A stretch of 63,841 bases of DNA, filler included, from Kipferlia bialata (Eukaryota), in assembly GCA_003568945.1 (NCBI GenBank). It is 6 parts of 6 records of this genome, joined end to end, with 100 filler letters (N's around TTAATTAATTAA, not from the genome) between each part and the next. Parts side by side here need not be neighbours in the genome. Positions count along the whole stretch, not along the records: positions 13,794 to 27,366 come from BDIP01000916.1; 5 more parts are not named here. One strand, 5' to 3'. Both the position numbers and the translations under genes were made by a program. The first letter of the stretch is position 1; the number at the start of each line of letters is the position of its first letter. The notes beneath the pieces were generated by a model. That model was not told where the DNA came from. It worked only from the letters and a program-made list of their open reading frames with translations, and ran no database searches. Positions 13,794-27,366 of this stretch are shown piece after piece.

Positions 13794-13794
13794 C

Positions 13795-13861
13795 GCGCTT
13801 GATGTAGAGAGTGACACCCTGACAAGTGACTGACCCAGCTGGTCAGCTGTCAAAACTAAAT
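13795..13861 (+). repeat. Left terminal inverted repeat (67 bp)
   Basis: GCGCTTGATGTAGAGAGTGACACCCTGACAAGTGACTGACCCAGCTGGTCAGCTGTCAAAACTAAAT is the reverse complement of 27299-27365 with one mismatch. A further shared block CCTTTTTAGCATATT lies at 13885-13899. Confidence 0.95.
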
Positions 13862-14157
13862 TGCTTAAGCAGATCGAGTCAGAACCTTTTTAGCATATTA
13901 TGTCACGAGAATTAGTTCTATTTCAGACTTTGACCTTACTCTCTCCATGGCCAACAGATCCATGACAGTCAGCATCTGGCTAGTTTCGGTTGGCAGCTCA
14001 GATTTATGGGTAGATCGGTTTCTATATGGACTGCTGCAACGAGGAATGACCACTGTAGAGAGGGGGCCTCCTTCTACTGTTGATACCTATTGAGGGTGGA
14101 CTGAATGCCATCTTACTGCTTCTCTACCCCTAGAGCATTCGTTCTCAAGCCCAAGCA

Positions 14158-17100
14158 ATGGGTAAGAACGACCTCAAGCCGAAGAAATGGTTTGCCATGG
14201 GAGACCTCTCATCTGGGCCCCCTGAACCTATTCGATTGGTCCACTTTCTCTTTGCTGTCGATGCGACAAGGTACAATATGTATACTTCCGTTATTTTCAA
14301 TAACGATTACATGCGCGATTTCGGTATGGATCAGAAGGTAGTGACCTGTGTGGATTCAGATAATTTGTCTAATTGTACCAGATGGGATGTCAGGTATGTA
14401 GATGTATCCCCCCCCCCACCAAATGCCAATACCAGGTCAGACAGTATGACGGTCCACTTCCATCCCAAGTGGGGAGATGCATACAGGGTCACCAAGCTGG
14501 CACGGTATGTGAATTTAGTACGATACTGATACCAGTCTGGCTACCTCATTTTGAGATTAGACCCTAACCTTGCAGGTATGCCAGAGTGGATATTGTCCAT
14601 CTTTGCATGCCTACGACCCTAACTATGGGCAAGTGGTCCTTCAAGGTGACCTCCCCGTTTATGTGTCGTTATTCAGCAATGTCACTACCGCGTCAGTTAC
14701 TGACCCCCCCCCCCCTCCCCATCAGATATGTATCTAACCACAGTGCAAGCTCAAGGGAAAGAAGTTCTCAACACAAGACTGGGAGAGAGACCAGGGCATG
14801 CCAGTCATGAGTCACGAGTCCAAGTATCCTGACAGGTATATCACGAGGCTGCTCTTGTGTATACAATATTGAGTACCTGGTGTCTATCCGTCTCACTGCA
14901 GGTACATGTGCCTTTCCAGCGGTGACATATATCTAGGGTCCGTGTTGCACTCAACATTCTGTCCTGGACGCCACATTGGTATTCCCAATGAGCGTGTGGC
15001 TGCTCTTGTGGCGACAGCTCTCAGGTGAGCTGAAACACTCTTCTGAGTCCCATCTTCTCTCAACTGACCTCTTACTCAGGTGGTTTTCAGATAGACCCGG
15101 CCTCCTTCCCTGTATACAGAGCCTCTGCCAGATGAATGGCAGCTTTCAGTGTCCCTGCAGCCGGCCTCTGTTCTCCCCACCACCCCCTGGCATCAAGACA
15201 CACTACTCTCTGTCTGACGCCCTTGCTCTCGTTCAGTCCCTGGACACTCCCCTCTCTGAAGTGGGGGACGCATGTCTGTACCTGGGCTTTGACATCGCTG
15301 ACCTCTTTGCGGCACCGTGGCTCCCTGTGTGTCAGAGAGGCGCTGCACGGGGTCTGGATAGCCGGAAGGGCATTGCAGGTCTGCAGAAGGTGTCTCTGGC
15401 CGGGTTGAAACTGTATCTCGCTGTTGTGAGGCAGAGGGTGGGGTCGAAGATGCGGATGTTGGAGGATGTCCACCGGATGCTGACACTTCCAAGAGAGGGG
15501 AAGCTGCCTCCAGCGCTGGCCACCCAGTTTGGTGTCCTGGTGGCTGCAAGTCACCCTAGTGGGCGCCAGGAGCTCTCCCAGCTACGCTCACTTATTGGTA
15601 TTGTTCCTTCTGCCTTTTGGAACCCGTTGATGAAGGTGTGGTGTCTCTATTACAGATATGTCTCTCTTAGCACACTATGACTCACATCTGCCCCTTACAT
15701 CACTGGCCTCACCTTAGCAATGGAGTACGCCCAGGGGCATGGCTACGGGGCTATCCTTTGTGGCAGGCCTCCCCTCCGACCACCCATCTGAGTGTGCTAC
15801 CATCCTGGACGCAGCAGAAGCACATGGCCTCTACAGCTCGGGCTGGCCCCTGCATGAGGTCCTCCATAAGCGGGCACTCTGGGAGGGAGGGGATGGAGTG
15901 CTGCTGAACAGAATTGATTCAGTAAAGCAACTGCGTGTATTGAAGGAGAGGGTGCCTCTGAGGGTTGTGACTGGATGCGATCTGGAGGATTGTTGCATCG
16001 ACGGCCCTGTGGAAGGTCTCCTTACCTCCCTTGGGCTTGTTGATAGTCTCCCTGCCTTCGAGGCGGCTTTCCACTGTCTTACCAAGAGTCAGAATCTCCT
16101 TCACATACTCCAGGAGCAGCATCGTCACATGGCAGTTGTAGGCGGTGTGTTCACAGACGTTCTTGGGCAGTGTGTGGACCTGGTTATGAGGAAGTTAAGG
16201 ATGGCGCTTCTTACAACGGTCATTGACATACCCGGCCTATTGGAGGGCAGTGATACTGGGGATGTGATTATTATTGGCCAGTGGGTGCAGTCCACGCTGT
16301 TTCACCACTTCGTCTCCCACTCAGATCTCAGTGGCATTGGAGTGGTAGTGTCAGATACTGAATCTGACACTGAGTATGTACCCGATGACAGTGGAGTGGA
16401 GACACCAGACACTGATTACAGCACTTCAGACCCTATGATCGTGGAGTCGGGTATGACCGATACACTCTCTACCCACTCAGAGAGTGCCTCTGATGATAGA
16501 GCCATGACGCATGTCATTGACCTCCGGCCTGTCTTAACAGTCTCAGATCTCGTGACTGTGGCACACGCTGTCCAGGACATTGACAGGGCAATCAGAGCCC
16601 GCAGTATCGAGCCCTCAGCTGCCACTCTACTTGCAGCAGTGCCTCTTCCAGTTCTTGAGCGCCACATCGAGGAGGTGATTGGCAAGAACCAAACAGGCCA
16701 GTATCTGGATACACTCATAGTGTACGTGCGTGTCATCACCGCCATTCCCCACCTCGAGTCCCTCTATCGACACATCACTGTCACTTTCCGGAGTGTGAGG
16801 AAGCCTCTCTCTCATTCTGTCCGCAAGACTATTGACAGGGTCATGCAACAAGTTGGGAGGGTGGGTTGTGGCACAGCTCATCCTGACAAGCTCTGTACCC
16901 CTCTGGCCTCCGCGCTCTCTGCTCTCTGCCACACACCCCACTGTCTGTCCTTCTTCGAGTGTGCTGCAGGGGAGGCCAAGGAGGGTATGGCATTTGCAGC
17001 AAAGCAGGCCGACTCTACCGCCCACTTACTCAACCAACTCAGACACCGGGGCGCTGGGGTCCCTATTAGCGTCATATCAGGCTTCACATGGCTGATAGCT

Positions 17101-26100: not shown

Positions 26101-27131
26101 CCACCTCTGTGGACATACCTGTGATTGTATGGCAAGATGTGACCCTGGGTCAGTTCCTCGCCTTACAAGAGGATATCACCCTTCCAGCCAGAGCACAAGG
26201 ATATGAGGGGGAGGCTGTGTCAATGGGCACTGTTCTCATGAAGCTGATACAGCAGTACAATGCTATATGCCAGTCCATCCTCCAGGAACTTGGTGTGGAG
26301 GGGGTTAACCTGCACAGAGTCAGTGCGTCTGCATTCTCCCAGCGCAACCTGCCCCCTACCCTAGATGTGCAGACTGTGGAGCCTGTGGCGGCACTCTCCC
26401 ATGATGCTGCCCAGCTGCTCTCTGGGGTCAGGGTACTCTCGGGTATGCCTGCTCTTGTACTGATAGACGAAGACCCCACCCCTCTGGAGATGCACAAGAT
26501 ACAGCCACGAGGATGCCTACAGTGGGTCCAGGACTATGAAGAGGGAGTGGTAGGGGATATGTCACGCCCTGTTCCACCTCTACCGAGTGAGACTGTGCAG
26601 ACTATCTCTGACATGCCCCGGAACACCATAAGTAGGACTGTGGGTGCCTGTGCTGCGGCCCAGGATGCTGTGTCTACACTAGCTCGTGTTGAGGATGCAA
26701 CTACACCTCTGAGAGAGTTTCTGGACAGGTGGGGAGTGACACCGCACGTCAGTGTGCTGGCTGAGTATGATCTCGTCGGTATAGAGGTGCGGCAGGTGCT
26801 GAGACTGGCCTCTGCCCTCCAGGCTAGACTAGACTGGGATGACATAGTGGATAGGGTGCAGGGGGAGGTGCCTCTGGAGCACTGGACTCTGACCAAGGCT
26901 CAGAGACAGAGACTAAGGCGCATGTCACAGACAGACACAGCATGTCTTGGGCACTTGGTCAAGGTGCTGTCCTTCAGGGTGGATCAGACGGAGAGGCACA
27001 ACCCTGCAATGACATCTCTGTACTGTACGGCATATGAAGAGGACGAGGGGGGAGAGGCCGTGTGTAGGGCTCTGGATACTCTATCATTCATGTCACTGGT
27101 GGCATACTTTGTCAAGGAGTCACATCACTGA
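14158..27131 (+). CDS. RNF213-like: RNF213/mysterin-like giant AAA+ ATPase with RZ-finger E3 module (~4000 aa, multi-exon; exact start uncertain)
   Basis: Collinear RNF213 motifs: STDAGMGKT (cf. SERAGVGKS), YEFTPDVALKM..PVLLTGDGGTGKT (cf. YELTTDNMLKI..PVIIMGETGCGKT), LFLDEVN, AVNPLR, YVFRVNPIPESM..DFGSL, IARNRAYSEN..VPIIIIGEPGTSKS, FDELGRA..NPLKSLHSILE, FIGLSN, FGLRD, SRYLLV, GSQFEGD, LYDMLNKNY, PALLQRLEK. RZ-like CGGCG.VVFIGNCG..CPKC at 25119-25217. Stop at 27129-27131. Confidence 0.93.
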
Positions 27132-27298
27132 GTGTGGAGGGAGATCTGATTGCAGAGTCTCACGTGCATTGATCTGCAGGAGATACCGATAATAGAGAAG
27201 ATGATTTTCGTCTATTATGATGAAGTGGTGATGTCCTGCACAATATGCTAAAAAGGCTCCATTCATTATATGATTAAGCTTAGAAAACTGTTTTAGTG

Positions 27299-27365
27299 AT
27301 TTAGTTTTGACAGCTGACCAGCTGGGTCAGTCACTTGTCATGGTGTCACTCTCTACATCAAGCGC
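27299..27365 (-). repeat. Right terminal inverted repeat (67 bp)
   Basis: Reverse complement of 13795-13861. The subterminal block AATATGCTAAAAAGG at 27242-27256 mirrors 13885-13899. Confidence 0.95.
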
Positions 27366-27366
27366 A

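What the first reader, a model, noticed from the sequence alone, without database searches (positions are those of the whole stretch)
13794..27366. A 13.6-kb inverted-repeat-bounded cassette whose only cargo is a giant RNF213-like immune ATPase/E3 ligase
Seen: the first and last 67 bp of this piece are reverse complements (1 mismatch). A second shared 15-bp block sits further in at different spacing. One ~13-kb gene fills the interval, and no transposase, integrase or polymerase ORF is present. Known: animal RNF213 is a dynein-like AAA+ ATPase/E3 that ubiquitylates bacterial LPS and restricts intracellular pathogens. Inference: this is either a non-autonomous cargo-carrying transposon, an amplified cassette or a linear extrachromosomal unit moving an anti-microbial ubiquitin system in a bacterivorous protist. 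The assembly breaking exactly at both repeats suggests the ends are multi-copy.
Basis: partly seen in the sequence, partly recalled or inferred. Interest (0 to 1): 0.92.

Follow-up and report, generated by a model that had tools for sequence, protein, structure and literature searches.

The report
RNF213-like gene between long inverted repeats
A free-living, bacteria-eating protist has an intact, spliced, expressed relative of the human immune protein RNF213, at normal single-copy read depth and tightly framed by inverted repeats whose outer parts are likely missing from the assembly; it is likely a gene once captured by a transposon, but movement and immune function are untested.

Summary
The piece is one whole contig whose ends are a 67-bp inverted repeat with 1 mismatch. 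It holds one 19-exon gene, identical to the annotated 3,897-aa Kipferlia bialata protein KIPB_004330. RNA contigs confirm 15 of its 18 introns. Its AAA core is RNF213-like (E 4e-28). It has no RING finger. An RZ-like zinc site keeps the catalytic Cys but not the general-base His, so ligase activity is open. Read depth (494-526) equals host depth (474, 510), which argues against an amplified cassette or high-copy episome. Two other ends in the same DNA run share the outer 38 bp at 87-92%, and both start 30 bp outside the position where this contig is cut. The repeat therefore probably continues outward, and the true termini and any target duplication are not in the data. Best reading (0.45): a non-autonomous long-TIR element that captured a whole gene, mobility unproven. 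Main rival (0.28): an ordinary paralog as spacer of an inverted duplication of a transcribed repeat. RING-less RNF213 relatives occur in other eukaryotes; I found no paper on one as transposon cargo.

The parts
13795..13861 (+). Left inverted repeat, visible (probably inner) part; four TGAC and two GTCA motifs
27299..27365 (-). Right inverted repeat, visible part; 1 mismatch to the left copy
13882..13902 (+). Inner shared block, left (21 nt, 90%; 15-nt exact core)
27239..27259 (-). Inner shared block, right, about 19 nt further in than on the left
13962..27195 (+). Span covered by spliced RNA contigs of run X2
   Evidence: records 6 and 7; lengths 2918 and 8982 against 2917 and 8982 computed
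14158..27131 (+). Coding sequence, 19 exons, 18 GT-AG introns of 44-165 nt, 3,897 aa, identical to P0001 (KIPB_004330)
   Evidence: 15 introns seen as RNA joints, 3 inferred from frame and record lengths
19540..22424 (+). RNF213-like AAA core, aa 1546-2329; Walker A/B motifs of the two modules that match RNF213's Walker-bearing ones, kept in 3 of 3 paralogs
   Evidence: E 4.3e-28; E 7.9e-44
25119..25217 (+). RZ-like zinc site, aa 3228-3260: four Cys as likely zinc ligands, Cys3240 at the nucleophile position, no His at the general-base position

Best explanation
The contig is likely the unique core of a non-autonomous DNA transposon with long terminal inverted repeats that likely captured, as DNA with its introns, one whole expressed RNF213-like gene. 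Shown: the repeat, the intact spliced gene, depth of about 1x host, and two related ends elsewhere in the genome. Inferred: the arms continue outward for at least 55 identical bases, and likely more than a paired-end insert, which is why the assembler stopped. Also inferred: the TGAC/GTCA arrays are binding sites for a transposase supplied from elsewhere, and the element is now fixed at one locus. The protein likely works as an ATP-driven scaffold like RNF213 and may transfer ubiquitin through Cys3240 by a variant RZ finger; its target is unknown.
For: The two ends are closer to each other (66 of 68, plus shared inner blocks) than to the two sister ends (33 and 35 of 38, then diverging), as expected for paired ends of one element. 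Six short motifs sit in 70 nt against a contig mean of 0.85 and an interior maximum of 4 (motif chosen after seeing it). Both sister ends keep a GTCA doublet just inside (loose ends). Packing is tight: 297 nt from repeat to ATG, 168 nt from stop to repeat. In a graph simulation unique flanks give no branch at node size 55, so a 67-bp repeat alone cannot explain the break. A shared outer arm puts the 30-mer branch node at 13764-13793, the geometry of both sister contigs. The neighbouring contig keeps a shared 55-mer at its start, with a variant at its 56th base, whereas this contig starts on the left/right mismatch.
Against: No terminus, target duplication, empty site or transposase was seen. 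Only one copy of the cassette is evident (depth 494-526 against 474 and 510). The two paralogs are old (55% and 41% identical) and lie on 35-kb and 31-kb contigs, so they are not stand-alone cassettes of this size. One sister end lies inside an RNA contig running 255 nt or more both ways at depth about 195 (arithmetic, an upper bound), which fits a transcribed repeat as well as a TIR. Trimming of a shared arm by the assembler is recalled SPAdes behaviour, not tested here. Pack-MULE cargo in PMC6431247 is mostly 1-2 kb.
Confidence: 0.45

Rival explanations
1. An ordinary chromosomal RNF213 paralog is the unique spacer of an inverted duplication (palindrome) of a transcribed multi-copy gene or segment. 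Arm-to-arm conversion keeps the arms alike and fades towards the spacer; nothing moves as a unit.
For: Depth 1x. Identity fades inward rather than ending sharply. A sister end is inside an abundant RNA contig. The same graph geometry arises as in the best explanation (model B). Paralogs are old and on longer contigs.
Against: Sister ends share only about 38-65 bp of the inner part yet keep its motif array, which looks like a functional end signal. The repeat sits within 300 nt of the gene on both sides.
Confidence: 0.28
2. Two independent insertions of a dispersed repeat landed in opposite orientation on either side of the gene.
For: The repeat family has at least 4 ends in run X1.
Against: The two flanking copies are much closer to each other than to the other copies and share further inner blocks. 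0 further copies in the other 50 kb of the window, so the family is not dense.
Confidence: 0.1
3. The visible repeat is the complete TIR of a recently active element that sits at two or more loci, each on one homolog, so that total depth is 1x.
For: Model C breaks the graph at the first shared base with no trimming. PMC5874029 infers a diploid genome.
Against: It leaves unexplained why both sister contigs start 30 nt outside the same position at full depth (506 and 520). It also needs different terminal bases at the two ends.
Confidence: 0.1
4. An invertible segment, or a linear extrachromosomal molecule held at about one copy per genome.
For: Both would break an assembly at both repeats with 1x depth (inference).
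Against: No recombinase or polymerase inside. Related ends are joined to outer DNA. Inverting a whole gene with its 5' spacer would switch nothing obvious.
Confidence: 0.07

Closest known systems
Vertebrate RNF213 / mysterin (PDB 9JW1, 8S24, 6TAX, 7OIK)
   Same: AAA core homologous over aa 1546-2329; Walker motifs kept; a Cys-rich zinc site at the position of the RZ finger.
   Different: 3,897 aa against about 5,200; no RING; RZ has Cys in place of the zinc-binding His and no general-base His; N-terminal and C-terminal parts not detectably similar; CBM20 not shown.
RING-less RZ-bearing RNF213-like proteins of other eukaryotes (P0005; earlier findings e1-7200381, e1-7508612)
   Same: Giant AAA protein without RING; P0005 also has the Cys-x-Cys first ligand pair.
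   Different: P0005 has a canonical RZ (Pfam E 2.8e-11) with the His; the Kipferlia proteins do not. No inverted repeats are mentioned in the summaries of those earlier findings.
Pack-MULEs and other non-autonomous cargo DNA transposons (review PMC6431247)
   Same: Host-derived coding DNA between inverted repeats with no transposase inside.
   Different: Cargo is one intact, expressed 13-kb gene, not 1-2 kb fragments; termini, target duplication and transposase unknown; one copy.
Polintons/Mavericks and Starships
   Same: Large size; Polintons have TIRs.
   Different: No polymerase, integrase, capsid or tyrosine recombinase inside the contig.

Membership tests
RNF213 / mysterin | Dynein-like AAA core homologous to RNF213 | tested here: met
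   E 4.3e-28 single sequence; E 7.9e-44 profile, dynein only E 0.5
RNF213 / mysterin | Two AAA modules with Walker A and B motifs | tested here: met
   Motifs at aa 1574/1634 and about 1889/1957 align with RNF213 and are kept in 3 of 3 paralogs
RNF213 / mysterin | RING domain | tested here: not met
   No Pfam RING in P0001-P0003; a RING pattern finds P0004's RING and none in the three paralogs. RING is dispensable for bacterial ubiquitylation per PMC11549300
RNF213 / mysterin | RZ finger with zinc ligands and nucleophile Cys | tested here: inconclusive
   Cys pattern and position fit; Pfam RZ only E 0.33 for P0002 and none for P0001; paralog profile lands on the RZ of P0004 and P0005 but 27 and 6 of 200 shuffles score as well
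RNF213 / mysterin | RZ general-base His (human H4537) | tested here: not met
   Absent at the aligned position in 3 of 3 paralogs, present in P0004 and P0005; His residues just after the Cys in P0001 and P0002 could substitute (untested)
RNF213 / mysterin | N-terminal CBM20 domain | tested here: inconclusive
   No profile hit to P0004 or P0005, none in Pfam; not folded
RNF213 / mysterin | Ubiquitylation of LPS or other pathogen targets | not testable with these tools
   needs a biochemical assay
Non-autonomous TIR DNA transposon (Pack-MULE-like) | Inverted repeats at both ends | tested here: met
Non-autonomous TIR DNA transposon (Pack-MULE-like) | Defined termini with target-site duplication | not testable with these tools
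Non-autonomous TIR DNA transposon (Pack-MULE-like) | Related ends elsewhere in the genome | tested here: met
   2 of 5 X1 contigs laid are sister ends at 87% and 92% over 38 bp
Non-autonomous TIR DNA transposon (Pack-MULE-like) | Multiple copies or empty sites | tested here: inconclusive
   depth about 1x host; empty sites cannot be seen in contigs
Non-autonomous TIR DNA transposon (Pack-MULE-like) | Autonomous partner with transposase and the same ends | not testable with these tools
   genome not held
Polinton/Maverick or linear plasmid | Protein-primed polymerase, integrase or capsid genes | tested here: not met
   no relative of the gene or repeat in viral contigs

The most novel reading that the evidence does not exclude
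Kipferlia has a still-mobile family of long-TIR transposons that carry complete, intron-bearing, 13-kb RNF213-like genes with a His-less variant RZ finger, moving and diversifying a cell-autonomous anti-bacterial ubiquitin system as Starships move cargo in fungi.
Probability: 0.15. Interest if true: 0.75.

Novelty: new variant of a known kind. Interest (0 to 1): 0.42.

Why it matters
If the cassette moves, it would be a cut-and-paste element carrying a whole 13-kb spliced gene for a giant immune-type machine in a metamonad, much larger than typical Pack-MULE cargo, and a route for lineage-specific spread of RNF213-like genes. Whatever the repeat is, the three Kipferlia proteins give a natural test of RZ chemistry: they keep the nucleophile Cys and lack the proposed general-base His. 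If the repeat is an inverted duplication, the locus is an ordinary new member of a widespread family.

Tried and rejected
Amplified cassette or high-copy episome: rejected on depth (the tool warns that contig depth is only a rough guide, and X1 may be the source of this DNA). A stand-alone 67-bp TIR with unique flanks: gives no graph break at node size 55. Repeat as structured RNA or strong hairpin: fold z -0.17 and -0.13; only Rfam match E 0.88. Repeat patterns in metagenome and viral contigs: 0 hits; genome contigs not scanned. Outer flank of a sister end: 0 hits in the window. Gene in viral contigs: 0 of 444 candidate stretches confirmed. Runs X3 and X4: nothing laid, no evidence either way. 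AlphaFold models were low-confidence (mean pLDDT 36 and 45), and fold searches gave no match at E<=0.001 or Z>=8, so they are not used. One search was circular (the target was in the alignment) and is ignored. The ESM Atlas did not complete. More paralogs among shorter proteins: none from this species among 7,994 candidates scored. The C-terminal 1,143 aa matched only P0002 and P0003 among 1.84 billion representatives. Earlier notes on this genome or look-alike sequences: none. No family tree was built: too few relatives were retrieved.

Full report
Setting. The window is six contigs joined by N-linkers, and the finding is one whole contig of 13,573 bp. The contig's protein is in the database as KIPB_004330 of Kipferlia bialata, on a contig of the same length. 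The genome paper (PMC5874029; I saw passages and the overview section) describes a free-living fornicate fed on bacteria, a SPAdes assembly with default settings of 11,564 scaffolds, and a likely diploid genome.

The repeat. Positions 13795-13861 and 27299-27365 are reverse complements with one mismatch; the first base of each end differs as well (66 of 68). The other 5 contigs give 5-23 of 68. Similarity decays inward through an indel to a 21-nt block at 90%. Each end has four TGAC and two GTCA motifs in 70 nt, against a mean of 0.85 and an interior maximum of 4 (the motif was chosen after inspection). It is not an unusual hairpin or a known RNA, and exact patterns from it were found in no viral or metagenome contig.

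The gene. RNA contigs of run X2 (RNA by the tool's guess; its spliced joints fit that) show 15 GT-AG introns; 4 more joints were not displayed. Three further introns follow from frame and record lengths. The spliced frame is 3,897 aa without stops and equals P0001. Residues 1546-2329 match RNF213 structures at E 4e-28, and a three-paralog profile gives E 8e-44 with dynein at 0.5. Walker motifs are kept in 3 of 3 paralogs, and identity peaks in the AAA core (about 75% to P0002) against 40-55% at the ends, which indicates a constrained, working ATPase. No side ORF among the 17 scanned resembles a mobility enzyme.

The E3 claim. There is no RING. At aa 3228-3260 a Cys-rich site aligns with the RZ fingers of fish RNF213-beta (P0004) and of P0005. 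PMC11549300 (passages seen) assigns three Cys and one His to zinc, one Cys as nucleophile and one His as general base, and reports that RING is dispensable for ubiquitylating bacteria. The Kipferlia proteins keep the nucleophile-position Cys in 3 of 3 and lack the base His in 3 of 3. Statistical support is weak: Pfam RZ E 0.33 for P0002 only, and a Kipferlia-only profile lands on the true RZ in both test proteins but is matched by 27 and 6 of 200 shuffles. Structure prediction failed. So it works like an RNF213 ATPase, and ligase activity is plausible but untested. Earlier notes of this scan (unchecked AI notes) describe RING-less and RZ-less relatives in several protists and fungi, so the gene type itself is not surprising.

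Copy number. In DNA run X1, which may be the source of this sequence, the contig's two pieces have depths 494 and 526. The two long pieces of the neighbouring host contig have 474 and 510, the latter with the single-copy gene RPC5; shorter pieces there range from 355 to 771. The P0003 paralog piece has 512. Contig depth is a rough measure, but it argues against amplification and a high-copy episome.

Where the ends really are. Of 5 X1 contigs laid at 85% likeness, 2 are sister ends: 286 and 627 bp, sharing the outer 38 bp at 33 and 35 of 38, then diverging while keeping a GTCA doublet. Both begin 30 letters outside the position equivalent to 13794, at full depth (506, 520). In a simulation, a 67-bp repeat with unique flanks gives no branch at node size 55, so it would not stop the assembler. 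A shared outer arm puts a branch node directly before 13794, the geometry of both sister contigs, and all three models reproduce the observed X1 breaks at 13832 and 27328. The neighbouring contig starts with a shared 55-mer and a variant at base 56, so ordinary contigs keep the shared node, yet this contig starts on the left/right mismatch. I recall that SPAdes trims k bases from both ends of a single edge running from a node to its own reverse complement; this is recalled and not tested. Together these suggest that the arms continue outward and the 67 bp is their inner end. A two-locus model also breaks the graph at about 13794 but does not explain the sister ends. No laid contig bridged either end, which the tool says proves nothing. 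One sister end lies inside an X2 contig that runs 255 nt or more both ways at depth up to about 195, against 29-36 for this gene.

Interpretation. Paired ends more alike than their relatives, motif arrays and tight packing fit a long-TIR non-autonomous element that captured the gene as DNA (0.45). A transcribed repeat duplicated in inverted orientation around an ordinary paralog fits the same graph and the RNA (0.28). Independent insertions (0.10), a recently active two-locus element (0.10) and an invertible or linear unit (0.07) fit less well. Against recent mobility: one copy, and only three old paralogs found, two of them on 31-35 kb contigs whose DNA I could not fetch.

Comparison and novelty. 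The review PMC6431247 (passages seen) gives Pack-MULEs as mostly 1-2 kb and none above 7 kb, and enlarged CACTA elements of 16-20 kb. A full-text search for RNF213 with 'transposable element' and 'cargo' found 0 papers. Searches for Kipferlia with 'transpos' or 'ubiquitin' and for RNF213 with protist terms listed nothing on this locus or on protist RNF213 mobility; I saw listings and abstract starts only, plus one passage of 10.64898/2026.05.21.726589, which was not relevant. Supplements were not read, and subscription papers are not covered. Verdict: real feature, expressed gene, partly supported interpretation; a possible new variant of cargo transposon, with mobility and immune function unproven. 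Interest 0.42.

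Noticed in passing
window 17498-17680: Both long RNA contigs of X2 end here and extra short records fill the gap, which suggests alternative splicing around the 55-nt exon or retention of the in-frame 51-nt intron (the 4 joints concerned were not shown).
   Followed up: partly
window 13962-14093: A 43-codon upstream ORF lies in the 5' leader covered by the RNA contig.
   Followed up: no
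P0002 (KIPB_000512): Its annotated start is cut near the position of this gene's intron 3, where this locus also breaks in X1 at a C run. Its first exons may lie on a small contig, possibly one of the sister ends.
   Followed up: no
window 13794-27366: Simple repeats make up 0.5% of this contig against 2.5-9.6% of the other 5 contigs; 18 introns in 13 kb is below the genome figure of 2.45 per kb in PMC5874029.
   Followed up: partly
P0008: An 845-aa protein with an RNF213-like AAA part (E 1e-15) on a 523-kb unnamed ENA contig.
   Followed up: no
P0005: An unnamed 4,590-aa RING-less RNF213-like protein with a canonical RZ finger on gene-sized 13.9-14.0 kb contigs.
   Followed up: partly
window 28318-31968 and 39903-40817: A long-exon gene with a weak DUF4470 match (E 0.001) and an RPC5 gene (E 6e-31), the latter used as single-copy depth control.
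   Followed up: partly
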